Shown here: positions 19,466 through 55,012 of the stretch, piece by piece | Position numbering within the stretch: the stretch's first letter is position 1 | How the letters are laid out: each line of letters opens with the position of its first letter | IMG/VR virus record: IMGVR_UViG_3300017917_002795 | Location: 32,001-96,000 of that record | DNA: 64,000 nucleotides | Reading direction: 5' to 3' (one strand) | DNA from: a virus | Translations under genes and position numbers: made by a program | Notes under the pieces: model-generated | Database searches by the model: none | The model's input: only the letters and a program-made list of their open reading frames with translations | Told to the model about the DNA's origin: nothing

Positions 19466-21097
19466 ATGGCAGAATCTAAATTAAAACAACAAGATACGTA
19501 TCAAGGAATATATCCTACAGTTTTTAAAAAGATTGATGCTACAGATATTAACGTTAGTCCGTTTCAATCATATAAAACATGGACATTTACAAACAGTAGT
19601 CCTACTAGTAGTATACAAATATTAAAAGGTATATATTCAGATCCAAATTTTTTACCAGCATTAGGTACTAACTTAACGTATAATGATGCTGTGAATAATG
19701 ATGGATCATTGCAAACGCTTACATATTTTTCTATAAATCATTTTTATTATAAATACAAAACAGAACCTACTAAAACTTTTGGTCCTACAGATCTATCTCG
19801 AACTAAAAAAGTTTTATATGAATCTGCTTCTGTTTTTTCTTTTCCACAACGACAAATTGGCGATGGTATTAAACCAGGATCTTTTAAAATAAACGGAAAT
19901 TTCCAAGCTTCGGGTATTTACGGGGTTGGGATTTATGGAAATAGTATATATGGTAATGCTATAAATTCAAATGTTACTATTGTTTCTGATAGATATGGTA
20001 ATTTAATACATTCAGAATATCCAACAGCATCGATTATATCTAATGTAATGTGGTATGAAGGATTTAATGAATATTTTGATACAACACGAGTTGCATATTC
20101 ATCAGCTAATGTTTCATATATTCCAGGAATTTCATATAATTCAGGATCTGGATCATATGGTTATCAAGCTAATTTTGCTGGTGATGGATATATTAAAACA
20201 TCAATCGATGGTTTATATGATCGCAATCATAATTATGCAATTTCATTTTTTATTAAAGCAGAAAATAATACTGCAAATTCTAACATCATTTTAACCAAAT
20301 CTACCAGTTCATTAACACCTCAGTTTCCATTTAAAATTGAATTAACACCAAATAATTACATTGATTTTACGATTGCTGGAAGTACATCAGTTAAAAATAA
20401 TATCACATCTTCTATTGCAATGAATTCAGTTGAACGGCATATATTGTGTCAGAAATCTGGAAGTGTTATGCAGTTATGGATTGATGGTATATTGCATGCT
20501 TCAGCTAGTAGTACGTTTTTAACAGATACCAATTCACCATTAGTAGAATCTGCGCGCATTGATAACGCAGATCCGGTGTTTATTGGTGGATATGAGACTT
20601 CTGGTAGTGGATTAGTTGGTAATATAGATGAAATTCGAATTTATAATAAAGCATTAACATCCACAGAAATTGGTTATTTATGTGATATTAATTCCAATTT
20701 GACATTCATGCAAACTAATCATGTGGGTAACGTATTTTCTAAACAAGGAATAGCCGTAATTTCATCCCCGGATTATCGTTTTGATTACATCGTTAATAAC
20801 AATTTTGAAATTTCATACCGAAGCACCAAAACAATTCATGAATTATCGGTGATTGCTAATGTTAATTCAGGTGATTTTAATATGTCAACCAATTTAACAT
20901 TAACTAAAGATGATGATCAAACATATAAATCATTTGTTAGTAGTAGTAGTTTTTCACCATACATAACTACAATTGGATTATATGATGGCAATGGCCAATT
21001 ATTGGCAGTCGGAAAATTAGCTCAGCCAATACGTAAGCTTACTGATGTTGATATGAATTTATTGGTTCGTATTGATTTAGATAGGAATATATCATGA
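19466..21097 (+). CDS. Structural protein with LamG-like lectin domain
   Basis: YAISFFIK..HI..LWIDG..IGG..GNIDEIRIYNKALT; C-terminal YITTIGLYD..LLAVGKLAQP. Confidence 0.7.
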   Translation: MAESKLKQQDTYQGIYPTVFKKIDATDINVSPFQSYKTWTFTNSSPTSSIQILKGIYSDPNFLPALGTNLTYNDAVNNDGSLQTLTYFSINHFYYKYKTEPTKTFGPTDLSRTKKVLYESASVFSFPQRQIGDGIKPGSFKINGNFQASGIYGVGIYGNSIYGNAINSNVTIVSDRYGNLIHSEYPTASIISNVMWYEGFNEYFDTTRVAYSSANVSYIPGISYNSGSGSYGYQANFAGDGYIKTSIDGLYDRNHNYAISFFIKAENNTANSNIILTKSTSSLTPQFPFKIELTPNNYIDFTIAGSTSVKNNITSSIAMNSVERHILCQKSGSVMQLWIDGILHASASSTFLTDTNSPLVESARIDNADPVFIGGYETSGSGLVGNIDEIRIYNKALTSTEIGYLCDINSNLTFMQTNHVGNVFSKQGIAVISSPDYRFDYIVNNNFEISYRSTKTIHELSVIANVNSGDFNMSTNLTLTKDDDQTYKSFVSSSSFSPYITTIGLYDGNGQLLAVGKLAQPIRKLTDVDMNLLVRIDLDRNIS

Positions 21098-26402: not shown

Positions 26403-29400
26403 ATGAAGCGTAAAGAAGCAGTTTATAAAGGAGTAAATCTTACGGAAGTTTATTTTGAAGATACATCATTAACATCACCAGAATATTTTCAAATATCAGA
26501 ATTTCCAACACGTTTAACTGCTGGGAAAAATCTATTTAAACTTCGAGGACATCCCACAAATTTACGGGTTGGTGGTGTTTTAAATTTAGAAGTATTAGAT
26601 TATAACGGTGATCCTATCTACACAGAAATTGTTGATTATCTTGAAGAAGATAAGTCCCGAGTTATTGCAATCTATATTTATTCTGAAACATCACCGGGCG
26701 ATTGCACAGTAACATTAGTAGCTGAAGCAGTAACGATACAAGGTGCACCAGTGCCAATTGAATGGCAAGGACGTCCTAACGTTAAATGGTCTAGAACTGT
26801 CCCGGTTAATCCAAACGTTTCCAATGAAACTGAAATCATATTTACCAAATCACCAGCAATCATAGTATCAGAACAGATAGGAGTACAATTAAATCGTATA
26901 TATCCATCCAATGAACAATTTCCAACATATACCACCGGTCAAGTTCGTTATTTTTCATTGAATGGGGAGCCTGCTATTGAAATTTCCTCCGGGAAATTCT
27001 CCGGAGACATGAAAACTGGTACTATAACTGTACCGGCTCCAGTAAACCCTGCCCCTACACCTAATTTTCCGGTGGTTTCCACGCCTTACGTGTCTACGAT
27101 AAAAAAGATATTATCTGAAACAACGGCTTTGTTAGATCGCGAATATACGGCTTTTAGTAGCCAAAGCATTGCACCACATATATACACGGAATTTGCAGAG
27201 TCTGCATTTTCAATGTCATATGAAGCATCACCTACGTATGTGGCAACAGAAAACTCACAATCATTCGCATTGATACAACTTAAAGGATTAGATCCATCAA
27301 CTGGTGATGTGTCTCGAATCAAAGTTTATACCAATAACAAAGGTACGGTTGGAACATGGGAATTGGTTAATGATATTGAGTTAGAAGAAACGGAAATATT
27401 CGTAACTAGCACAGCATCATTATTTCCAGATGAATCTATAGGATCATTTGTATCACAGAGTATTATTGACACATATTGGGAAGGATTTACATATCAAGGT
27501 AAAACCACAGCAACTGCACCTGTATTAACATGGTCTACTGCATCTATGAATAATGCCATGGTAATTGGCAATGTTGTTGATATATCTGCTCTAAATGCAG
27601 TGAATGTTGTTCAAACTAAAGAAGCATTTAATGGGGTATTCATTGAAAAATCTGCATATAAAGTTACCATCGATGCAATTGGAAGTAGATCCGCAGATGG
27701 ATTGAATCCAAAACTATCCGTGTATGTGTCTGGATCTGCATTTTCATTTGATACTACCGATTACTTTAATCAAGAATTACCTAGAATTCTAGGTAAACGC
27801 ATCGGAGAAATTGAAATTACATCAAATTCACAACGCATTGATGATAAAGTATTTAATTTTGAATCTGATTATGATGGAACGGGTGCTTTACTATTTGTTA
27901 TAGAAGCTGGCAACTGGGAACTATCTGATGTGCGAACTACTACGGATAATGATGCAGGGTATTCGCCAAACTACACCAGATTGCGTTCTGTTATTAATAC
28001 TCCACATAAATCAAACAATCAGATTTCATTTAAAGTAGAATATTATAATGTTGCTGGCGTAAAGAGTAAACAAGAATCATATCTTTACAACAATTCATGG
28101 AAAGGTGGTAATCGTTATATTGATGGCGATTATTCAATGCTAACCGGTTCACTCTATGTTGCAGATTCATTGGAATCGGGTGTTGCAATATCCGGATATA
28201 AAGATACTGGTTTTGTTAGATCATTAGGATATGAAGGATTTGAAGCTGGATTTCCAGGATTCTTGCTTTGGAGTGGATCTGCATTATCTGGTTCAGCAGG
28301 TTCAAAAGGAGGTGTTCCTTATAGTGGCGTTGGATTAGAACTGTATGCCAATACCGCAAGTTATTTTAGATACTCGACTTCAGATTCAGAAATTGATGTG
28401 CGTACTGACAAATTCTTTTTTGGAAATCCAAATACTGCATATATCAGTGGTAGTAATGGCTTGTTAGAAATTTCATCATCTAAATTTTTATTAAGTAGTA
28501 GTGGAGCTGTTTTTATTGAAGGCGATGTTAATGCAACTGTTGGAAACTTTGAAGATGTGAATATAATAGGTATTCCGGTATTCCAATCAGGATCATTGCT
28601 TTATTTTTTAGAAACATGGTTTACATCATCAACGTATATTTTAAATGCATATAACGGAACACAATCAGCAGCTCCTGTTACATCATATTTTAATTATGGA
28701 TTATTAGGATGGTCTGCTAGTAACAGTGCATTAGCAACGCCTCTTTTTACATCATCGATCATGTCTGCGTCTAAATATTCTGGCGTAACAACTCCAAAAC
28801 CTCCTTTGTTTAAACAATGGTTTGAATATACGCATGACAATTCATATTATCCATATTATCCATATGGATCAAAACAATACAATCCAGTAAATAATGTACA
28901 ATTTAGAATTCCAGATGCTGGCACAGGAACGTATACAATAACTAGTGATATAATAACAATACCTGTCGACATATTATCATCTGATAACATGGAAGGATTA
29001 TTATTGCAAACAGTCGCAATGATTGGGCCTAGTTTTGGAGGATATTCGCCTAGCATAAGTGTTCAAATACAAAATGCTAGCGGAGTAAATTTAAAAACTT
29101 TAACATATACTGTTGATAATTCTAGATGGAATTATTTTAATATTGCATTAACACCTATATTAGTATCATATGATTCCTTTGGAAGCCTGACAATAACTAA
29201 TCAAATACGAATTCGATTAAGTTGGTCTGGTGCAAATACACCAGGGGGTGGTAATCTTAATTGGATTAGATGGGGAGAATTACGAATCATAAAAATACCA
29301 CAAGGACCAGGATTATCAATAACTAACGTTACTTTTGGTGATAGTGCATTATCCTCCGGACCATTATTTAATACATCTGGTAGCACTCAACATCTAGGAC

Positions 29401-29786
29401 ATTTTGTTCCAGAAGACGATAATGCTTATAATTTAGGTATTTCTAACCGTAGATGGGATGATATTTATGCTACTAATAATGTAATTCAAACTTCAGATAT
29501 ATCGCAAAAAGAAAATATAATAGATTCTGATTTAGGATTACATTTCATAAATTTATTGAGGCCGGTTAGTTATAAATTCAAAGAAAGATCTAGAACACAT
29601 TATGGGTTAATCGCTCAAGAAGTTAGTGCATCATTAATGCAATTAGATAAAACAACAAGTGAATTTGCTGGTATCGTGACAGGGTCTTTGCTTGGATTAC
29701 GATATATTGAACTATTATCACCTATGATTAAAGCAATACAAGAACTATCTACAGAAGTACAACAATTAAAATTAAATCAAAAATAA
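26403..29786 (+). CDS. Tail fibre/spike with C-terminal peptidase S74 intramolecular chaperone
   Basis: SDISQKENI..LRPVSYKFK..HYGLIAQEV..LRYIELLSPMIKAIQEL. Confidence 0.8.
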   Translation: MKRKEAVYKGVNLTEVYFEDTSLTSPEYFQISEFPTRLTAGKNLFKLRGHPTNLRVGGVLNLEVLDYNGDPIYTEIVDYLEEDKSRVIAIYIYSETSPGDCTVTLVAEAVTIQGAPVPIEWQGRPNVKWSRTVPVNPNVSNETEIIFTKSPAIIVSEQIGVQLNRIYPSNEQFPTYTTGQVRYFSLNGEPAIEISSGKFSGDMKTGTITVPAPVNPAPTPNFPVVSTPYVSTIKKILSETTALLDREYTAFSSQSIAPHIYTEFAESAFSMSYEASPTYVATENSQSFALIQLKGLDPSTGDVSRIKVYTNNKGTVGTWELVNDIELEETEIFVTSTASLFPDESIGSFVSQSIIDTYWEGFTYQGKTTATAPVLTWSTASMNNAMVIGNVVDISALNAVNVVQTKEAFNGVFIEKSAYKVTIDAIGSRSADGLNPKLSVYVSGSAFSFDTTDYFNQELPRILGKRIGEIEITSNSQRIDDKVFNFESDYDGTGALLFVIEAGNWELSDVRTTTDNDAGYSPNYTRLRSVINTPHKSNNQISFKVEYYNVAGVKSKQESYLYNNSWKGGNRYIDGDYSMLTGSLYVADSLESGVAISGYKDTGFVRSLGYEGFEAGFPGFLLWSGSALSGSAGSKGGVPYSGVGLELYANTASYFRYSTSDSEIDVRTDKFFFGNPNTAYISGSNGLLEISSSKFLLSSSGAVFIEGDVNATVGNFEDVNIIGIPVFQSGSLLYFLETWFTSSTYILNAYNGTQSAAPVTSYFNYGLLGWSASNSALATPLFTSSIMSASKYSGVTTPKPPLFKQWFEYTHDNSYYPYYPYGSKQYNPVNNVQFRIPDAGTGTYTITSDIITIPVDILSSDNMEGLLLQTVAMIGPSFGGYSPSISVQIQNASGVNLKTLTYTVDNSRWNYFNIALTPILVSYDSFGSLTITNQIRIRLSWSGANTPGGGNLNWIRWGELRIIKIPQGPGLSITNVTFGDSALSSGPLFNTSGSTQHLGHFVPEDDNAYNLGISNRRWDDIYATNNVIQTSDISQKENIIDSDLGLHFINLLRPVSYKFKERSRTHYGLIAQEVSASLMQLDKTTSEFAGIVTGSLLGLRYIELLSPMIKAIQELSTEVQQLKLNQK

Positions 29787-47951: not shown

Positions 47952-48434
47952 ATGAGCATTATTTTATACAAAGATCGTTTCATATCTAATAGCACGCCAG
48001 TCGATGTGTTATTAGAAGGTGGTGCGTTCCGTGTATTTGAAGGCGATATTTCTGAGTTAAACAATTTACCGCAAGACCGGCGAAAACCAGGTATGATTTG
48101 TGGTATATTGAATGGCCAGTCTTACTACATATTGAATCAGGGTCCATGGTCATACACAGATTCGGATTGGGAAGAAATTGTTGTTGTTCGAAAATCACAA
48201 GAAATATATTTTGTTGATAAAGAAACACCAACCGGCACGGTAGATGATATGAACATGATATTTGAATTACAACATCAACCAGTTGCAGATTCAGAACATG
48301 TTTATATTAATGGTATACTTCAAACGCCAGGAGATACTGCAGATTATGTTATCGCAACCAATCAAATCATATTTGCTGAACCACCATTTCCTGGTGCTAA
48401 TATACGGTGTACATACCGATATGTAAATGTTTAA
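47952..48434 (+). CDS. Structural protein with a C-terminal beta domain shared with 48833..51364
   Basis: ETPTGTVD..N.IFEL..SEHVYINGILQ..DY..I.F..PP..G. Confidence 0.6.
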   Translation: MSIILYKDRFISNSTPVDVLLEGGAFRVFEGDISELNNLPQDRRKPGMICGILNGQSYYILNQGPWSYTDSDWEEIVVVRKSQEIYFVDKETPTGTVDDMNMIFELQHQPVADSEHVYINGILQTPGDTADYVIATNQIIFAEPPFPGANIRCTYRYVNV

Positions 48435-48832: not shown

Positions 48833-51364
48833 ATGTCTACAACTAAAATCGTCTTAAATAGACAATCTGATTTAATTTTAGATAACGCGCAAATCACTGC
48901 TCCGGTTGGTATCGTTGTTGCGGATATCGATGGTTTAGAATCAGCAATTGCTTCTATCGATTCTAACGTGTCAACTGAAGTTTCTCGCGAGATCTCTTCT
49001 AGAGTATCTGGTGATGCATCTGTTGCTGCAAATTTATCTACAGAAGTTGAAAACCGTGAAGCTGCAGTATCTGCTGAAGAATCTCGTGCAATGGTAGCTG
49101 AGCAATCATTACAAAACAATATCGATGCTGAAGCATCTGTACGTATTGTTGGTGATGAAAGTTTAGAAGCTGCAATGTCAACTGCTGATGCTTCATTGGA
49201 TGCTAAAGTATCTTCTGAAACTGCTCGTGCAGAATCAGCTGAATCTTCATTAGAAGGTAGAATTGATTACATCGTATCAAACGTTGATCCTGCTGCTTTA
49301 GATTCATTAACTGAAATCGTTGGTGCTTTCCAAAGTGCAGATGGTGACCTTAACGGTGCTATCACTTCATTGGCTACTGCTGCTGGTGCTTCTTTAAGCT
49401 CTGAAGTATCTCGTGCTACATCAGCTGAAGCTTCTTTGGCTTCTGATCTATCTGTTGAAATCGCTGATAGAGAAGCTGCTATCTCATTAGAAGAAGCTGC
49501 TCGTATCTCAGGCGATGCTTCTGTTGTTGCTGACTTGTCTGTTGAAACTGCAAACCGTGAGGCTGCTGTATCGGCTGAGGCTTCTGCACGAGTATCTGGT
49601 GATGCAAGTTTAGAGTCTAAAATTACTGCTGATTTATCTACTGCAAATGCTTCTATCGAAGGTGCATTGAGTACTGAAATTTCAGCTCGTATCTCTGATG
49701 TAGATGCTGAAGAATCTGCTCGTATTTCTGGTGATGCTTCTTTAAGTGCTGCACTTTCTGTTGAAGTATCGGCAAGAATCGCTGACGTTGATGCTGAAGA
49801 GTCTGCTCGTATCGCTGCTGTAAGTGTTGAAGAATCTGCTAGAGTATCTGGTGATGCTTCTTTGGCTGCTGGTTTGTCTTCTGAAGTATCTGCAAGAATC
49901 GCAGATGTAGACGCTGAAGAATCAAGAGCAATGAGTGTTGAAGGCGTATTGAGCGCTGATTTATCATCTGAAGTATCTGCAAGAATTGCTGATGTTGACG
50001 CTGAACAATCAAGAGCTGAATCTGCTGAAGCATCATTGGCTTCTGGACTTTCTGTTGAAGTATCTGCAAGAATTGCTGATGTTGATGCTGAACAATCAAG
50101 AGCTGAATCTGCTGAAGCTTCTTTAAACGTTGCTTTGTCTTCTGAAGTTTCTGCAAGAATCGCTGACGTTGACGCTGAAGAGTCTGCAAGAATATCTGCA
50201 ATTGACAACGAAGCTTCTATCCGTTTGGCTGCTGACCAATCATTGGCAACGGCTGTATCTGCTGAAGCATCACGTATCGATGTTATCCTTGATGGTTCAG
50301 ATGTTGATCTTGATCAATTTGCTGAAATCGTTGAGTTCGTTAACGGAATTGACCTTGAAAACGATAACGCATTGTTAAGTGCTGTAACTTCAATTGGTTT
50401 AGATATCGATGCTGAAGAATCTCGCGCGGTATCTGCTGAAGCTTCTTTGAACTCTGCATTATCTGTTGAAATCTCAGCTCGTATCTCTGATGTAGATGCT
50501 GAACAATCACGTGCAGAATCAGCTGAAGCATCTTTGGCTTCTGGTCTTTCTGTTGAAATCTCAGCTCGTATCTCTGACGTTGACGCTGAAGAATCTCGTG
50601 CAATGAGTGTTGAAGCTGTATTAAGTGGTGATTTATCTTCTGAAGTTTCAGCTCGTATTGCTGATGTTGACGCTGAAGAATCTCGTGCGGTATCTGCTGA
50701 AGCGTCTTTAAACGTTGCTTTATCTTCTGAAATTTCAAGAGCTGAATCTGCTGAAGCGTCTTTAGCTACTGAATTATCTTACGAAGTATCTTACTTAATT
50801 GCAAACACAGACTTAACTTCAATTGACTCATTTGCTGAAGTATCAACTGAATTGTCAAATGAAATCTCTACAAGAGAATCTGCTGACAACTCACTTGAAG
50901 CTTATGTTTCAACTGAAATCGATGGTTTGGCTGCAGCTGATGAAGCAACTATTGAACTTGATACTGTTGGAAACGTAATTCGTTTGAAAGAAACAATTGC
51001 AGCACCTGCAAGTGGTTTAAGAACATTCGAAGGTGATGTTGAAGTATCTGGTGACTTGACAGTTGGTGGTGTTAACGTAATTGCTGAAATTAGCTCAGAA
51101 GTTTCTCGTGCAGAATCTGCTGAATTGAGCTTGGCTGATGACTTTGCAAACATCTACTTCAAGAAAGTTGCTGTATCTGGAACAATTAATGGTTCAAACG
51201 ATGTATTTACTCTAGCAAGTGCTGTAAGAAATGGCTCAGAAGCTATTTACTTGAACGGTCTATTGTTGAGTGCATCTGATGACTATGCAGTTTCTGGTAC
51301 ATCGTTAACATTTGTTGCCGCTCCTGAAGCTGGTGATAAAGTTGTTGTTTACGGTATGTATTAA
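48833..51364 (+). CDS. Long repeat coiled-coil fibre protein
   Basis: Repeated 11- and 18-residue units (EVSARIADVDA / EESRAESAEASL..L); three LDSL.EI-type breaks; C-terminal beta domain. Confidence 0.75.
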   Translation: MSTTKIVLNRQSDLILDNAQITAPVGIVVADIDGLESAIASIDSNVSTEVSREISSRVSGDASVAANLSTEVENREAAVSAEESRAMVAEQSLQNNIDAEASVRIVGDESLEAAMSTADASLDAKVSSETARAESAESSLEGRIDYIVSNVDPAALDSLTEIVGAFQSADGDLNGAITSLATAAGASLSSEVSRATSAEASLASDLSVEIADREAAISLEEAARISGDASVVADLSVETANREAAVSAEASARVSGDASLESKITADLSTANASIEGALSTEISARISDVDAEESARISGDASLSAALSVEVSARIADVDAEESARIAAVSVEESARVSGDASLAAGLSSEVSARIADVDAEESRAMSVEGVLSADLSSEVSARIADVDAEQSRAESAEASLASGLSVEVSARIADVDAEQSRAESAEASLNVALSSEVSARIADVDAEESARISAIDNEASIRLAADQSLATAVSAEASRIDVILDGSDVDLDQFAEIVEFVNGIDLENDNALLSAVTSIGLDIDAEESRAVSAEASLNSALSVEISARISDVDAEQSRAESAEASLASGLSVEISARISDVDAEESRAMSVEAVLSGDLSSEVSARIADVDAEESRAVSAEASLNVALSSEISRAESAEASLATELSYEVSYLIANTDLTSIDSFAEVSTELSNEISTRESADNSLEAYVSTEIDGLAAADEATIELDTVGNVIRLKETIAAPASGLRTFEGDVEVSGDLTVGGVNVIAEISSEVSRAESAELSLADDFANIYFKKVAVSGTINGSNDVFTLASAVRNGSEAIYLNGLLLSASDDYAVSGTSLTFVAAPEAGDKVVVYGMY
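49660..50780 (+). repeat. Coding tandem repeats, mostly 87-bp (29-aa) period
   Basis: For example, gaagtatctgcaagaattgctgatgttga(c/t)gctgaacaatcaagagctgaatctgctgaagc recurs 87 bp apart near 49970 and 50057. Confidence 0.8.
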
Positions 51365-51378
51365 TAGTTTAAATTTAT

Positions 51379-51402
51379 GGGGAGGATGAAATACTCCTCC
51401 CT
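51379..51402 (+). terminator. Hairpin (terminator-like) abutting ATATTTATA at 51403
   Basis: gggagga..tcctccc. Confidence 0.6.
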
Positions 51403-51452
51403 ATATTTATACAAAACAAAATAAATAAACTAAAAAAAAATAAAAAAAAACT

Positions 51453-53201
51453 ATGGCAACTTTTATAACATCCAAAGGGGTTGGGGAAACAATATCAATC
51501 ACTGTTGTAACCTCTACCGGATATTGGAAATATAACCATAACGGGACAGATTCAAGTGCTTTCGTAAATGGTGAAGACGGAGTGATAACTATATCAAACG
51601 CAAATGGTGAATTTACACTTATTTCATGTGATAGTGAAGGTAATGTAAGTGGGGATATTATTTATTTGGAATCACAAAATAACCAAATAACTTCATTTAA
51701 TGGAACAGGTTTAACATCATTAACTGAGTTGTATTTAGGTGGTAACCAATTAACATCATTTGATGGTACTGGTTTATCAGATTTAAACGTTTTGTATTTA
51801 ACCAATAACCAATTAACTGGATTTACGGGAACAGGTTTATCTTCTTTAACTCAGTTGTATTTATACAATAACCAATTAACCGGATTTACGGGAACAGGTT
51901 TAACATCATTAACTGAGTTGTATTTAGAAAATAACCAATTAACATCATTTGATGGAACAGGTTTATCTTCTTTAACTACATTGGGTTTATATAATAACCA
52001 ATTAACTTCATTTGACGGAACGGGTTTATCTTCTTTAACTACATTGGGTTTATATAATAACCAATTAACTTCATTTGACGGAACGGGTTTATCTGGATTA
52101 ATTAATTTAAATATAGAAAATAACCAATTAACTGGATTTACAGGAACTGGTTTATCTTCTTTAACTGAGTTGTATTTAGGTAATAACCCACTCACATCAT
52201 TCAATGGTGGAGATATGGGTCAAATCACAAGTTTAAATTTTCAAGGTAACTTGGGTATTTCAACACTAGAATCATTTGATGGTGGTAATATGACTGGTTT
52301 AACTGAATTGTATTTACACAATAACCAATTAACTTCATTTGATGGAACTGGTTTATCTTCTTTAACTCAGTTGGATTTAAACACCAACCAATTAACTTCA
52401 TTTGACGGAACAGGTTTATCTGGTTTAACTTCATTGGCTTTATATGGCAACCCACTCACATCATTCAATGGTGGTGACATGGGTCAAATCACCGAGTTAA
52501 ATTTTCCTGATAGTTGGAATATTACAACGCTACAATCATTTGATGGTGGTAATATGACTGGGTTAACTTCGTTATATTTATATAACAACCAATTAACTTC
52601 ATTTGATGGAACTGGTTTATCTGGATTAACTTCGTTATCTTTATATAACAACCAATTAACTTCATTTGATGGATTTATTTTTCCTGAAAGTTTAACTTAT
52701 TTAGAATTAAACAACAACCAATTAACTTCATTTGACGGAACTGGTTTATCTGGATTAACTTCGTTATCTTTAAACAGTAACCAATTAACTTCATTAGATG
52801 GATTTATTTTTCCTGAAAGTTTAACTTATTTAGAATTAAACAACAACCAATTAACTTCATTTGACGGAACTGGTTTATCTTCGTTAAATGGATTGTATTT
52901 AGCTAACAACCAATTAACATCAATTAATATTGCTGGTTGTGATATTCTTCGATATCTATACGTTAATGATAATCCATTAACACCCGTTATCAACAATTCA
53001 CTTCTAGCAAAACTTGCAGCAAATGAATTAGTAAATGATTGGAATTCTGGTGAATTCATCACAACAGGAGGAAGAACATCTGCTGGTACAACTGATTATG
53101 ATTATTTGATCGCAAATGGTTGGTCAATTGGAGGTGCTGATTTAGTTCCCGTTGTAACAGGTAAACTACGTGTTAAAGGTGTTGGACAGATTAATCCATA
53201 A
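51453..53201 (+). CDS. Leucine-rich repeat protein (about 21 LRRs, mostly 21 aa)
   Basis: LxxLxLxxNQLTSFDGTGLSS repeats; no signal peptide. Confidence 0.92.
   Translation: MATFITSKGVGETISITVVTSTGYWKYNHNGTDSSAFVNGEDGVITISNANGEFTLISCDSEGNVSGDIIYLESQNNQITSFNGTGLTSLTELYLGGNQLTSFDGTGLSDLNVLYLTNNQLTGFTGTGLSSLTQLYLYNNQLTGFTGTGLTSLTELYLENNQLTSFDGTGLSSLTTLGLYNNQLTSFDGTGLSSLTTLGLYNNQLTSFDGTGLSGLINLNIENNQLTGFTGTGLSSLTELYLGNNPLTSFNGGDMGQITSLNFQGNLGISTLESFDGGNMTGLTELYLHNNQLTSFDGTGLSSLTQLDLNTNQLTSFDGTGLSGLTSLALYGNPLTSFNGGDMGQITELNFPDSWNITTLQSFDGGNMTGLTSLYLYNNQLTSFDGTGLSGLTSLSLYNNQLTSFDGFIFPESLTYLELNNNQLTSFDGTGLSGLTSLSLNSNQLTSLDGFIFPESLTYLELNNNQLTSFDGTGLSSLNGLYLANNQLTSINIAGCDILRYLYVNDNPLTPVINNSLLAKLAANELVNDWNSGEFITTGGRTSAGTTDYDYLIANGWSIGGADLVPVVTGKLRVKGVGQINP
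51660..52985 (+). repeat. 63-bp coding tandem repeats (LRR array)
   Basis: Conserved aaccaattaac(t/a)tcatttga(t/c)ggaac.ggtttatc alternating with variable segments. Confidence 0.9.
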
Positions 53202-53222: not shown

Positions 53223-53254
53223 AAAGAAAGGGACTTCAAAAGAGTCCCTTTTTT
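53223..53254. terminator. Bidirectional terminator between convergent genes
   Basis: aaagaaagggact..agtccctttttt. Confidence 0.85.
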
Positions 53255-53273: not shown

Positions 53274-54458
53274 TTACATATATAGGTTCGTCATTGGATC
53301 ATATACCAATCCTTTATTTCCACCATTAAATAAACCTTCAATTAAACGGTCATATGTTTCAACCACTTCTTCATTATCAATATGGTAACGTTGTAAAACT
53401 TTATCGTTTCTCTCATTGTATTCATCTATATTTTTATCGTGTTCTGTTAAAATATAGTTTAATGTTTTAGAAGCCTCAACCGTATCTGAACCCTCATAAT
53501 AATATCCCAAATCTTTACACATTAGAGCATTATGTAATACTGGATACCCTAAATAAGCAGCATCCAAATACAGATAATTTAATGGATTTAATAGTTGATG
53601 ACAAATCAACACATCCAAATGTTGAGTTAACATATAAGCTGTTTGATAACGCGACTCAGAACTTATCTTACCTTCTCTAAACAAATCAAATGTTTGAATT
53701 ATGGACATAAATTCTCGATGTTTTGAAACTACCGTTCCATTTGTAATACGAAGTTTATCAATGTGTTTTCGGCCTGTAATAGTGCGATACGATTCCTCAG
53801 CAATCATGGCTGGAATCAAACAAAACTTAACAATGTTTAGGTTTGGCTCCATAATACCTAAAATTTTCTTTTCTTTGGTGTTATCGTATTGCCAATCTTT
53901 TTTATATTTTTCGGCCTTGAATCCTTTATGTATTTCTCTAACCGCCTCAAACAGAAATTTTTCTGACCATATAAAAGGAACAGATAGAGCATTTGTGCGA
54001 TACAATGTCTTATATAATCCAGAATTTACCTCATCTTGTTGTGGAACATACCATATTTCATCATATTGACGTTCATATTGAAACTTCTTATCCTCACTTG
54101 GACGAAACAAAATATTTTCCATATGGATCACATAGTTGTTTCCACATTTGTAAGATACGACTTTTTTATTATCTCCAGAACGTTTAAATGTTTCAAGTTG
54201 ATAGTCGTGTATTTGAGCACCCATCACAATTAATAGGTCCATTTCCAAGAACTTATCGTTAAAGTAATGAATGTCTATTCCATCAAGGTATGAAGGACGT
54301 TCTGTAAAATCTACATTCATTGAGTTTAAAATGCAGACGTCATAGCCTTTCTTTGAATTTTTCAACAGGTGTACAAGCATCAAAACATTTTGTTTGATAC
54401 CGTTTGTCCAAATGGATTCTTTGTTGTCTTTTAAGCCGAGTGTAATTCCTATTTTCAT
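53274..54458 (-). CDS. DUF2827-like protein, putative GT-B glycosyltransferase
   Basis: IWTNGIKQN, CGN, VPFIWS, MEPNLNIVK..IP, HQ..NPLNYLYLDA..GYPVLHN..GYYY. Confidence 0.7.
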   Translation of the reverse strand: MKIGITLGLKDNKESIWTNGIKQNVLMLVHLLKNSKKGYDVCILNSMNVDFTERPSYLDGIDIHYFNDKFLEMDLLIVMGAQIHDYQLETFKRSGDNKKVVSYKCGNNYVIHMENILFRPSEDKKFQYERQYDEIWYVPQQDEVNSGLYKTLYRTNALSVPFIWSEKFLFEAVREIHKGFKAEKYKKDWQYDNTKEKKILGIMEPNLNIVKFCLIPAMIAEESYRTITGRKHIDKLRITNGTVVSKHREFMSIIQTFDLFREGKISSESRYQTAYMLTQHLDVLICHQLLNPLNYLYLDAAYLGYPVLHNALMCKDLGYYYEGSDTVEASKTLNYILTEHDKNIDEYNERNDKVLQRYHIDNEEVVETYDRLIEGLFNGGNKGLVYDPMTNLYM

Positions 54459-55012
54459 AGTCGTTTTCCGTGTTTATTTACAAATTGTTCTACAAGTTTA
54501 TTTCTACGTTCTTCAGATGGTGCGTGAGCATATAACCAGATAAATGATGCTTCTATGGCGGCTAATTCTTCACGCTTATGCATTATCCGTTGTTTCAATA
54601 TATCTTTATCCTCAGGATCTATGGAGTGCGTTATATTCAATCTATGGCATATTTCATACAATGCAAACAAATCAAATTCTTCAGCTGCATTTGTAGCTTC
54701 TACATATAATTCATGAAGACTTGTATCTGCACATCGGTCCGGATGAGTGTGTTTTGCAATTTCTCGGTACAATCGTTTTACTTTGTCTCGAGTGCTAGCA
54801 TCCACTGTGTCAGGATCAATGCGTCGTTTTGCTGGACGTTCTGGCATTGATTCTGGTTCAGGCTCTGGTTCTCCGTTTGCTTCTCTAACACGTTTTAAAA
54901 ATTCTGTTTTGTTAGCGGCAATGATTTCTTGTTTGTATTCTTCATCTAACAATAAAAAACTATATTCTTGCAACAATTTCTTCACCTCAAGATGCTGTAT
55001 TTTATCATTCAT
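54455..55012 (-). CDS. J-domain (DnaJ-like) co-chaperone protein
   Basis: VKRLYREIAKHTHPDR helix II-HPD motif followed by helix III. Confidence 0.75.
   Translation of the reverse strand: MNDKIQHLEVKKLLQEYSFLLLDEEYKQEIIAANKTEFLKRVREANGEPEPEPESMPERPAKRRIDPDTVDASTRDKVKRLYREIAKHTHPDRCADTSLHELYVEATNAAEEFDLFALYEICHRLNITHSIDPEDKDILKQRIMHKREELAAIEASFIWLYAHAPSEERRNKLVEQFVNKHGKRL

What the first reader, a model, noticed from the sequence alone, without database searches (positions are those of the whole stretch)
51453..53201. Phage LRR array with constant backbone and variable binding face
Seen: about 21 LRRs in which NQLTSFDGTGLS.L is nearly fixed, also at DNA level. The exposed strand positions vary (TELYLGG, NVLYLTN, TTLGLYN, INLNIEN, TQLDLNT, TSLALYG, TYLELNN). 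Higher-order duplications occur (GDMGQI..GNMTGL twice, FIFPESL twice). The gene has a late motif, no signal peptide, and lies among fibre genes. Knowledge: those positions form the concave ligand-binding surface of LRRs. Inference: a virion-displayed or anti-defence binder diversified by repeat shuffling, conceptually like lamprey VLRs and needing no reverse transcriptase.
Basis: partly seen in the sequence, partly recalled or inferred. Interest (0 to 1): 0.7.

Follow-up and report, generated by a model that had tools for sequence, protein, structure and literature searches.

The report
Phage LRR binder in swappable slot
An uncultured Flavobacteria-type phage encodes a leucine-rich-repeat protein with a constant scaffold and a highly variable binding face, in a fast-changing gene slot next to a fibre gene, so it is probably an exchangeable host-binding part of the virus particle rather than a programmed, immune-like diversity system.

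Summary
Window 51453-53201 (+) encodes a 582-aa protein with about 21 LRRs of 21 aa (Pfam LRR_4 3e-59). The backbone (NQLTSFDGTGL..L..L.L) is almost fixed, down to its codons. Positions 16, 18 and 20 of the unit are close to random, and an AlphaFold2 model (pLDDT 87) places them on the concave beta-sheet.

The gene follows a promoter-like motif that it shares with structural genes. It lies between a coiled-coil fibre gene and a conserved DUF2827 gene.

In 25 related phage loci this slot holds one of three things: LRR genes of the same family (222-1569 aa, 1-5 modules), DUF285 solenoid genes, or nothing. Slot proteins of every kind carry a short peptide, KLR[VI]KG, which I propose docks them to the virion.

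Nothing supports a VLR-like programmed mechanism. The 140.6-kb record has no donor cassettes, reverse transcriptase, deaminase or recombinase. The diversity looks evolutionary: duplication and recombination of repeats plus selection on the binding face.

No near-identical allele was found, so variation within a population could not be tested. Virion attachment and the ligand are inferred, not shown. I call it a new variant of a known kind, of moderate interest.

The parts
48833..51364 (+). Upstream neighbour: an 843-aa repetitive coiled-coil, fibre-like protein with conserved N-terminal and C-terminal domains. It is the left border of the variable slot.
   Evidence: ORF. 87-nt repeats. Only weak Pfam coiled-coil matches. 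Present next to the slot in related loci. The termini are conserved in alignment A2. No sequence match in the PDB.
51380..51401 (+). GC-rich hairpin (GGGAGGA...TCCTCCC) directly after the fibre gene stop codon.
   Evidence: Read from the sequence.
51403..51411 (+).
   Evidence: 25 matches against 4.4 expected; present upstream of 14 of 48 plus-strand starts.
51413..51450 (+). A-rich leader before the start codon.
51453..51680 (+). N-terminal beta domain (aa 1-76; MATFITSK...GYWKYNHNG...ANGEFTLISC). It heads every LRR module of the family.
   Evidence: Six strands with pLDDT 85-94. ESM Atlas structural look-alikes are the N-terminal parts of Bacteroidota LRR proteins (TM 0.62-0.73; a lead only).
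51681..52970 (+). LRR array, aa 77-506: 13 canonical 21-aa units, two 46-aa double units, two 22-aa FIFPESL units and one terminal variant.
52971..53141 (+). C-terminal cap domain (aa 507-563): a helix at 511-528 and a small alpha/beta part (GGRTSAGTTDYDYLIANGW).
   Evidence: 88% identical to P0007 over aa 500-582.
53142..53201 (+). Flexible C-terminal tail (aa 564-582) carrying the peptide KLRVKG (nt 53163-53180), followed by the stop codon.
   Evidence: pLDDT below 50 for residues 564-582. The motif occurs once in the 140.6-kb genome and 29 times in the window plus 18 related loci, always in slot genes.
53227..53251 (.). Hairpin between the convergent LRR and DUF2827 genes; terminator-like.
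53274..54458 (-). Right border of the slot: a conserved DUF2827 protein of 394 aa.
   Evidence: Pfam DUF2827 2e-97. 64-94% identical in 27 related viral loci.
54455..55012 (-). A 185-aa protein with a weak J-domain match, co-oriented with DUF2827 and conserved beside it in relatives.
   Evidence: Pfam DnaJ 2.8e-4, below the curated cut-off. Synteny.

Best explanation
The gene encodes a soluble LRR solenoid. It is transcribed from its own promoter-like element, of the type that also precedes structural genes. I propose that it is mounted on the virion, probably on or near the coiled-coil fibre encoded just upstream, through its flexible C-terminal tail carrying KLRVKG. On the virion it would bind a surface structure of the host through the Tyr/Ser/Asn/Glu-rich concave face of its roughly 21 repeats.

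The gene occupies an exchangeable cassette slot. Related phages carry other LRR arrays, DUF285 solenoids or carbohydrate-binding-like add-ons there, and all of them have the same short peptide.

The array evolves by ordinary tandem duplication, deletion and recombination of repeat units. Purifying selection holds the scaffold fixed, and diversifying or relaxed selection acts on positions 16, 18 and 20.

Shown: the fold class, the position of the variable residues, the turnover of the slot, the shared peptide, and the absence of dedicated diversification enzymes. Inferred: virion attachment, the docking role of the peptide, the ligand, and the late timing.
For: - Fold: Pfam LRR hits. AlphaFold2 model with pLDDT 87.3 and pTM 0.73. 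Foldseek hits to SHOC2, InlJ (3bz5), Leptospira LIC11098 and InlA at E 1e-13 to 1e-10.
- Variable face: position entropies; the same pattern in 169 units from 14 genes, with 3.4, 3.2 and 3.4 bits at positions 16, 18 and 20 against less than 1 bit at 11 backbone positions.
- Selection within the gene: backbone without positions 5, 7 and 12 has pN 0.011 and pS 0.19; face positions 16, 18 and 20 have pN 0.585. In the two 264-nt copies, face pN is 0.47 against backbone pS 0.17.
- Context: the motif ATATTTATA lies 42 nt upstream and is shared with the portal gene and a Peptidase_S74 fibre gene. Terminal hairpins flank the gene.
- Slot turnover: of 25 related loci with a visible slot, 15 carry LRR genes of this family. 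These range from 222 to 1569 aa and from 1 to 5 N-domain starts by a rough motif count. Three of the other loci carry DUF285 genes, and two have nothing between the fibre and DUF2827 genes. Several loci are near-duplicates (L008/L010, L016/L018/L019, L022/L029, L024/L025, L020/L028, L026/L027), so there are about 15 distinct configurations.
- Closest relatives by the DUF2827 protein differ completely in the slot. L008 and L010 (94%) have two 237-aa LRR genes. L005 (92%) has a DUF285 gene. L006 (91%) has an empty slot.
- Shared peptide: KLR[VI][KR]G occurs 29 times in six-frame translations of the window plus 28 loci, and every copy lies in a slot gene. 13 copies are at the C-terminal end of LRR proteins, 11 at the N-terminal start of non-LRR proteins, and 5 lie between an LRR module and a further domain. 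The DNA under the motif varies at synonymous sites, so the peptide is what is conserved.
- Nearest relative by the C-terminus, P0007: 88% identical over aa 500-582, but it has two modules with different arrays.
Against: - There is no homology to any experimentally proven receptor-binding protein. The three PHROG families hit are of unknown function. There is no match in 50,697 deposited phage genomes (with the low-complexity filter on).
- No proteomic or structural evidence shows that the protein is in the virion.
- The slot is empty in L006 and L013, so the cassette is dispensable.
- The genes to the right (DUF2827, a J-domain-like protein, and in relatives sulfotransferases and a GT25 glycosyltransferase) are enzymes. 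The region could therefore be an accessory island rather than part of the particle.
- The docking role of KLRVKG rests only on conservation, position and predicted disorder.
- Evidence for positive selection is suggestive, not decisive. Pooled over the recent duplicates, face pN is 0.28 against pS 0.22 over all sites. Units 5 and 6 differ by 3 synonymous and 0 non-synonymous changes. Gene conversion could also lower the backbone pS.
Confidence: 0.5

Rival explanations
1. The protein is displayed on the virion but is not the infection receptor binder. Instead it is a decoration that makes the particle stick to polysaccharide matrices, particles or non-host surfaces, raising encounter rates, as proposed for Ig-like capsid decorations.
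For: It shares the context evidence of the best explanation. The gene lies right after the head genes and a coiled-coil, whisker-like fibre, not in a recognisable baseplate cluster. Some relatives add a C-terminal carbohydrate-binding-like domain; PF02839 is listed for several hits, and L022, L024, L025 and L029 carry such ends. The slot can be empty, as expected for a non-essential decoration.
Against: Nothing separates it from the receptor-binding reading. The extreme turnover of the slot among close relatives is more typical of host-range determinants.
Confidence: 0.2
2. It is a non-structural intracellular binder made late in infection, for example an inhibitor of a host defence sensor or another host protein. 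The variable face would then track variable host targets.
For: There is no signal peptide, so the protein stays in the cytoplasm until lysis. LRRs are general protein-binding scaffolds. The slot is an accessory, fast-changing locus with enzymes beside it.
Against: It is co-oriented with, and immediately follows, a fibre gene. It shares the promoter-like motif of structural genes. The alternative cassettes are DUF285/BspA-type solenoids and carbohydrate-binding-like domains, which are typical of surface adhesins. The conserved terminal peptide is easier to explain as a common mounting device than as part of many different inhibitors.
Confidence: 0.15
3. It is a programmed, VLR-like, DGR-like or shufflon-like system that generates diversity within a phage population by copying or inverting cassettes.
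For: Backbone synonymous sites are less diverged than the flanks, which frequent unit exchange could produce.
Against: The 140.6-kb record has one LRR gene. A 35-nt unit probe with up to 8 mismatches hits 15 times, all inside the gene. The record has no RVT_1, no dCMP/cytidine deaminase fold, no resolvase or invertase and no tyrosine recombinase. Face codons differ at all bases, not only at adenines. One caveat applies: the record is estimated to be 83% complete.
Confidence: 0.03

Closest known systems
Bacterial LRR surface adhesins with short repeats (Listeria internalins such as InlJ and InlA; Leptospira LIC11098)
   Same: They share the solenoid fold with a concave parallel beta-sheet and an Asn ladder. 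They are among the Foldseek top hits (3bz5, 4u08, 1o6s). Their binding residues lie on the concave strands.
   Different: This protein has no signal peptide, no helical N-cap and no Ig-like inter-repeat domain. Instead it has a beta-rich N-domain and a small helical C-cap followed by a flexible tail. It is encoded in a phage. That InlJ has 21-residue repeats is recalled, not tested.
Bacteroidota cell-surface LRR proteins (many with a T9SS sorting domain)
   Same: An N-terminal beta domain precedes NQLT-type LRRs. ESM Atlas structural neighbours of residues 1-80 are the N-terminal parts of such proteins (TM 0.62-0.73; a lead only). Distant sequence hits include Bacteroidota proteins (P0099, P0103, P0105).
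   Different: No signal peptide and no Por_Secre_tail domain was found. The specific N-domain, C-domain and KLRVKG tail were found full-length only on viral-type contigs and on one contig of a Flavobacteriaceae MAG (L032), which has the same phage synteny.
Lamprey variable lymphocyte receptors (VLRs)
   Same: An LRR scaffold with a conserved backbone and hypervariable concave-face residues, and arrays of variable unit number.
   Different: VLRs are assembled somatically from flanking donor cassettes with AID/APOBEC-like deaminases (recalled). Here there are no donor cassettes and no deaminase fold. The diversity is between lineages.
Modular phage receptor-binding proteins with a conserved anchor and exchangeable distal parts (for example tailspikes of Klebsiella phages with short conserved N-terminal docking peptides; recalled)
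   Same: Both have a hypervariable locus next to a fibre gene and interchangeable binding modules that share a short conserved terminal element.
   Different: Here the modules are LRR and DUF285 solenoids, not beta-helix depolymerases. The shared element is only 6-8 residues and sits at either end of the protein. Docking has not been shown.
LRR/beta-helix domains predicted in host-recognition proteins of the jumbo phage Goslar, and DUF285/BspA-like ORFs in Vibrio phage pir03
   Same: These are tailed-phage proteins with LRR or DUF285 solenoids, proposed or annotated as surface or host-recognition parts. I read passages of bioRxiv 10.64898/2026.04.21.720040 and table rows of PMC7765460.
   Different: The anchor modules differ (DUF7941 in Goslar). 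There is no sequence relationship to this family; no match was found in the phage collection.

Membership tests
Leucine-rich repeat proteins (Pfam LRR clan) | Tandem LxxLxLxxNxL units | tested here: met
   LRR_4 3.4e-59 and LRR_8 9.8e-44. 13 canonical units plus variants. Asn-1 is invariant in 169 of 169 units of the family.
Leucine-rich repeat proteins (Pfam LRR clan) | Curved solenoid with a parallel beta-sheet on the concave face | tested here: met
   AlphaFold2 model with pLDDT 87.3 and regular strands every 21 residues. Foldseek PDB hits to LRR structures at E 1e-13. This is a prediction, not a solved structure.
VLR-type somatic LRR assembly | An incomplete expressed gene plus silent donor LRR cassettes elsewhere in the genome | tested here: not met
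   One protein-level match in the record. 15 of 15 DNA probe hits lie inside the gene. The record is 83% complete.
VLR-type somatic LRR assembly | An AID/APOBEC-type cytidine deaminase | tested here: not met
   PF00383 has no match in the record, and the control rings in 12 of 14 genomes. Specific APOBEC models were not run.
VLR-type somatic LRR assembly | Many different arrays within one population or individual | not testable with these tools
No near-identical allele was found in any collection.
Diversity-generating retroelement target | A reverse transcriptase and a template repeat with adenine-specific differences | tested here: not met
   No RVT_1 match. No second copy of the unit outside the gene. 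Face codons vary at all four bases.
Shufflon or invertible tail-fibre segment (Mu G, P1 C, R64) | A site-specific recombinase and inverted crossover sites | tested here: not met
   No resolvase and no tyrosine recombinase. KLRVKG occurs once in the genome, and its DNA is not conserved between loci.
Phage receptor-binding or fibre-associated protein | Encoded in the structural region and expressed with structural genes | tested here: inconclusive
   It follows the head genes and a fibre-like gene and has the shared promoter-like motif. Timing and the promoter's class are inferred. The neighbours to the right are enzymes on the other strand.
Phage receptor-binding or fibre-associated protein | Physical presence in the virion and binding to the host surface | not testable with these tools
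   The phage is uncultured, and no proteomics is available.
Bacteroidota T9SS-secreted LRR surface proteins | A signal peptide and a C-terminal Por_Secre_tail sorting domain | tested here: not met
   Pfam finds only LRR families. The N-terminus is modelled as folded beta strands.

The most novel reading that the evidence does not exclude
This phage lineage uses a plug-in system for host recognition. Unrelated solenoid binders (21-aa LRR arrays, DUF285 arrays, carbohydrate-binding-like domains) are all fitted with the same 6-8-residue amphipathic peptide (KLR[VI]KG) at whichever end is free. Any cassette dropped into the slot can then mount on one fixed virion site. In addition, the nucleotide-level constancy of the LRR backbone, shared across phages whose flanking genes are saturated at synonymous sites, is maintained because it serves as a recombination substrate. 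This lets repeat units be exchanged within and between co-infecting phages. It would be an evolutionary, enzyme-free counterpart of VLR assembly.
Probability: 0.2. Interest if true: 0.65.

Novelty: new variant of a known kind. Interest (0 to 1): 0.45.

Why it matters
If the LRR and DUF285 cassettes are virion-mounted host binders, they would add the LRR solenoid to the known folds that tailed phages use for recognition. They would also give a compact, repeat-based scaffold whose specificity residues are easy to read: three positions per 21-aa unit. The short shared peptide would be a simple handle for predicting, and in laboratory phage-host pairs testing, which genes of uncultured Flavobacteriia phages determine host range. 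The locus is also a clear natural case of a constant scaffold with a hypervariable face evolving without any dedicated mutator.

Tried and rejected
- Near-identical alleles. The search of 5.8 billion proteins gave at best 44-68% identity. Viral contigs gave 45-48%, metagenome contigs at most 65% and genome contigs 44%. dN/dS between orthologous repeats was therefore impossible. I used paralogous units and higher-order duplicates instead.
- Cultured relatives. tblastn of the LRR protein and of DUF2827 against 50,697 phage records found nothing. The fibre hit only one weak 'tail fiber protein' segment. The nearest named phages are Flavobacterium phages of the genus Immutovirus, by the major capsid gene only (75.5% nt).
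- Second fold. The DUF285 protein of L005 gave a confident solenoid, but residues 1-102, which include the KLRIKG start, had pLDDT below 50 with an alignment of only 5 sequences. This says nothing specific about the motif.
- KLRVKG as a DNA recombination site. Rejected, because the codons under it differ between loci.
- DGR, VLR-like and shufflon-like mechanisms. Rejected; see the membership tests.
- Antisense ORFs inside the array (for example 51851-52204 on the minus strand). I take these to be shadows of the repeat.
- Earlier notes of this scan. Nothing was returned.
- Literature. Full-text searches for phage LRR tail-fibre or receptor-binding proteins and for 'Flavobacterium phage' with 'leucine-rich' (0 papers) found no description of this family.
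Full report
**What is there**

Window 51453-53201 (+) is one ORF of 582 aa. Tandem Repeats Finder reports 63-nt arrays over 51678-52207 and 52294-52922. It also reports higher-order periods of 189, 264 and 129 nt. Pfam gives LRR_4 3.4e-59 and LRR_8 9.8e-44.

Cutting the protein at its N-x-L-T anchors gives:
- an N-terminal domain (aa 1-76);
- 13 canonical 21-aa units (NQLTSFDGTGLSxLxxLxLxN);
- two 46-aa double units (GGDMGQI...GGNMTGL);
- two 22-aa FIFPESL units;
- one terminal variant;
- a C-terminal part (aa 507-582).

**Constant backbone, variable face**

In the 13 canonical units, 10 of 21 positions never change. Positions 16, 18 and 20 have 2.66, 2.20 and 2.35 bits of entropy. Positions 21, 13 and 15 vary less, and positions 5 and 7 switch together (S..D or G..T).

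The constancy reaches the codons. Asn-1 is AAC in 13 of 13 units, although AAC is 27% of Asn codons in long ORFs of the genome. Gly-8 is GGA in 12 of 13 units and Gly-10 is GGT in 13 of 13.

An AlphaFold2 model built with a 17-sequence alignment has mean pLDDT 87.3 and pTM 0.73. Its short strands fall on unit positions 16-20, so residues 16, 18 and 20 face the concave side. Foldseek finds LRR solenoids: SHOC2, InlJ 3bz5, LIC11098 and InlA.

Nei-Gojobori counts over the 13 units give:
- backbone pS 0.235 and pN 0.07;
- without positions 5, 7 and 12, backbone pS 0.19 and pN 0.011;
- face positions 16, 18 and 20, pN 0.585.

In the two 264-nt copies, face pN is 0.47 against backbone pS 0.17.

Two results point the other way. 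Pooled over the recent duplicates, face pN is 0.28 against pS 0.22 for all sites. Units 5 and 6 differ by three synonymous changes and no replacement. Diversifying selection on the face is therefore likely but not proven, because gene conversion of the backbone could give a similar picture.

**Genomic setting**

The window is part of a 140,594-bp viral record estimated to be 83% complete, with 35% G+C. The terminase, portal and major capsid genes lie upstream. The capsid gene is 75.5% identical in DNA to Flavobacterium phages of the genus Immutovirus.

The LRR gene follows an 843-aa repetitive coiled-coil fibre-like gene. Between the two lie a hairpin, the motif ATATTTATA (51403-51411) and an A-rich leader. 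The motif occurs 25 times in the window against 4.4 expected. It lies upstream of 14 of the 48 plus-strand starts that I printed, among them the portal gene and a Peptidase_S74 fibre gene. I infer that it marks late genes; this was not shown.

After the stop codon comes a hairpin shared with the convergent DUF2827 gene.

**The slot in relatives**

Using the DUF2827 protein as a handle, I fetched 27 related viral loci (64-94% identity). In 25 of them the slot is visible. Several are near-duplicates, so there are about 15 distinct configurations.
- 15 loci carry LRR genes of this family, from 222 to 1569 aa. They hold one or two genes per slot and one to five N-domain starts per protein by a rough motif count.
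- L005, L011 and L014 carry DUF285 solenoid genes instead. L009 carries both kinds. Pfam DUF285 scores are 7e-84 to 5e-159 for the three proteins scanned. The L014 genes were judged by 67-76% identity to the L005 protein.
- L006 and L013 have nothing between the fibre and DUF2827 genes.
- Other loci hold small or unknown proteins, and some add sulfotransferase and GT25 genes.

The closest relatives by DUF2827 differ completely in the slot. L008 and L010 (94%) have two 237-aa LRR genes. L005 (92%) has a DUF285 gene. L006 (91%) is empty.

The relative closest in the C-terminal 83 residues is P0007 (88%). It has two modules with other arrays.

A contig of a MAG titled Flavobacteriaceae (L032) has the same fibre-LRR-LRR-DUF2827 order. 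This gives a weak hint about the host.

**Family-wide pattern**

In 169 units from 14 genes, positions 16, 18, 20 and 21 have 3.4, 3.2, 3.4 and 2.8 bits. Eleven backbone positions have less than 1 bit. Asn-1 is AAC in 147 of the 169 units.

The same three unit types (canonical, GGDM/ITTL pair, FIFP) recur in different orders and numbers. This count comes from regular expressions that miss some units.

**A shared peptide**

KLR[VI][KR]G occurs once in the whole record. It occurs 29 times in six-frame translations of the window plus 28 loci, in the window and 18 of those loci, and every copy lies in a slot gene:
- 13 copies at the C-terminal end of LRR proteins;
- 11 copies at the N-terminal start of DUF285 or other proteins;
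- 5 copies between an LRR module and a further domain.

The codons under it differ between loci, so the peptide is what is conserved, not a DNA site. In the model, the tail 564-582 that carries it has pLDDT below 50.

I propose that it is a common docking strand. This is an inference.

**What it is not**

The record has none of the following:
- a second LRR gene;
- LRR-unit-like DNA outside the gene (15 of 15 probe hits are inside it);
- a reverse transcriptase;
- a dCMP/cytidine-deaminase fold;
- a resolvase;
- a tyrosine recombinase.

A programmed VLR-like, DGR-like or shufflon-like mechanism is therefore not supported. The caveat is that 17% of the genome may be missing.

**Unexplained**

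Backbone pS between the window's units and those of L022, L023 and L025 is 0.29-0.37. That is about the same as within the window's own gene. For the same phage pairs, DUF2827 has pS 0.75-0.77 and the N-domain 0.56-0.63. Synonymous codon differences are only slightly lower within genes than between them (0.204 against 0.265; 0 of 300 shuffles reach this difference).

Possible causes are exchange of units between phages, selection on the DNA itself, accuracy-driven codon choice, or plain codon bias. All remain open.

**Literature**

LRR/beta-helix domains are predicted in host-recognition proteins of phage Goslar (passages read). DUF285/BspA-like ORFs are annotated in Vibrio phage pir03 (table rows read) and in a giant virus (passages read).

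Three full-text searches found no description of this family.

The following statements are recalled and come from no call: plant R-gene LRRs, VLR assembly, docking peptides of Klebsiella phage tailspikes, and the 21-residue repeat of InlJ.

**Verdict**

It is not supported as a programmed system. The LRR part is ordinary LRR evolution in an unusual carrier. The exchangeable LRR/DUF285 slot with a shared terminal peptide is the more interesting part.

Noticed in passing
window 53163-53180; loci L005-L029 (positions listed): The peptide KLR[VI][KR]G marks every kind of protein encoded in the slot: LRR, DUF285, carbohydrate-binding-like and small unknown proteins. It sits at the C-terminus, the N-terminus or between domains. 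All 29 copies lie in slot genes, and the codons under it are not conserved.
   Followed up: partly
window 53274-55012 (minus strand); L016 11247-13097, L007 7447-9270, L017 14602-16419: The slot is bordered by a conserved DUF2827 protein and a weak J-domain protein. In several relatives there are also two sulfotransferase-like genes and a GT25 glycosyltransferase-like gene. These may be glycan-modifying accessory genes beside the fibre locus.
   Followed up: partly
window, 25 sites (for example 5681, 8070, 10939, 17428, 19432, 26378, 29788, 31870, 35745, 44335, 51403, 55053, 59361): The motif ATATTTATA is enriched about six-fold (25 against 4.4 expected) and lies just upstream of many genes, mostly on the plus strand. 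It is probably a phage promoter element. Its reverse complement contains TATAAATA, which I recall as the T4 late promoter core.
   Followed up: partly
window 51681-52970 compared with L022, L023 and L025 LRR genes: Synonymous sites of the repeat backbone are about half as diverged between phages as those of the flanking DUF2827 gene and the N-domain. Position-specific codons (AAC for Asn-1, TTG for Leu-17, GGA for Gly-8) are shared across the family.
   Followed up: partly
window 48833-51364 and its relatives (647-1209 aa): The coiled-coil fibre gene is itself a repeat array (87-nt units; SxEVSARIADVDAEESRA...). Its length varies between relatives, while both termini are conserved. Its C-terminal domain resembles that of the 160-aa protein at 47952-48434.
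   Followed up: partly
L022 11257-13320, L024/L025 11259-, L029, L005 9327-9554, L011 about 11473: A C-terminal domain ending in YAPSGYGPFGGYIDVYWTL occurs fused after KLRVKG in some LRR proteins and as a stand-alone mini-ORF in other loci. PF02839 (CBM_5_12) is listed for several family members.
   Followed up: no
L032 (contig of a MAG titled Flavobacteriaceae bacterium): A 22.5-kb contig binned with a Flavobacteriaceae MAG carries the same order of genes: fibre, two LRR genes, DUF2827. It is likely a phage contig and gives a weak hint about the host.
   Followed up: partly
window 19466-21097 and 26403-29786: Other candidate binding proteins lie in the window: a 543-aa protein with a Laminin_G_3 (ConA-like lectin) domain, and a 1127-aa fibre with a Peptidase_S74 chaperone domain at its C-terminus.
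   Followed up: no
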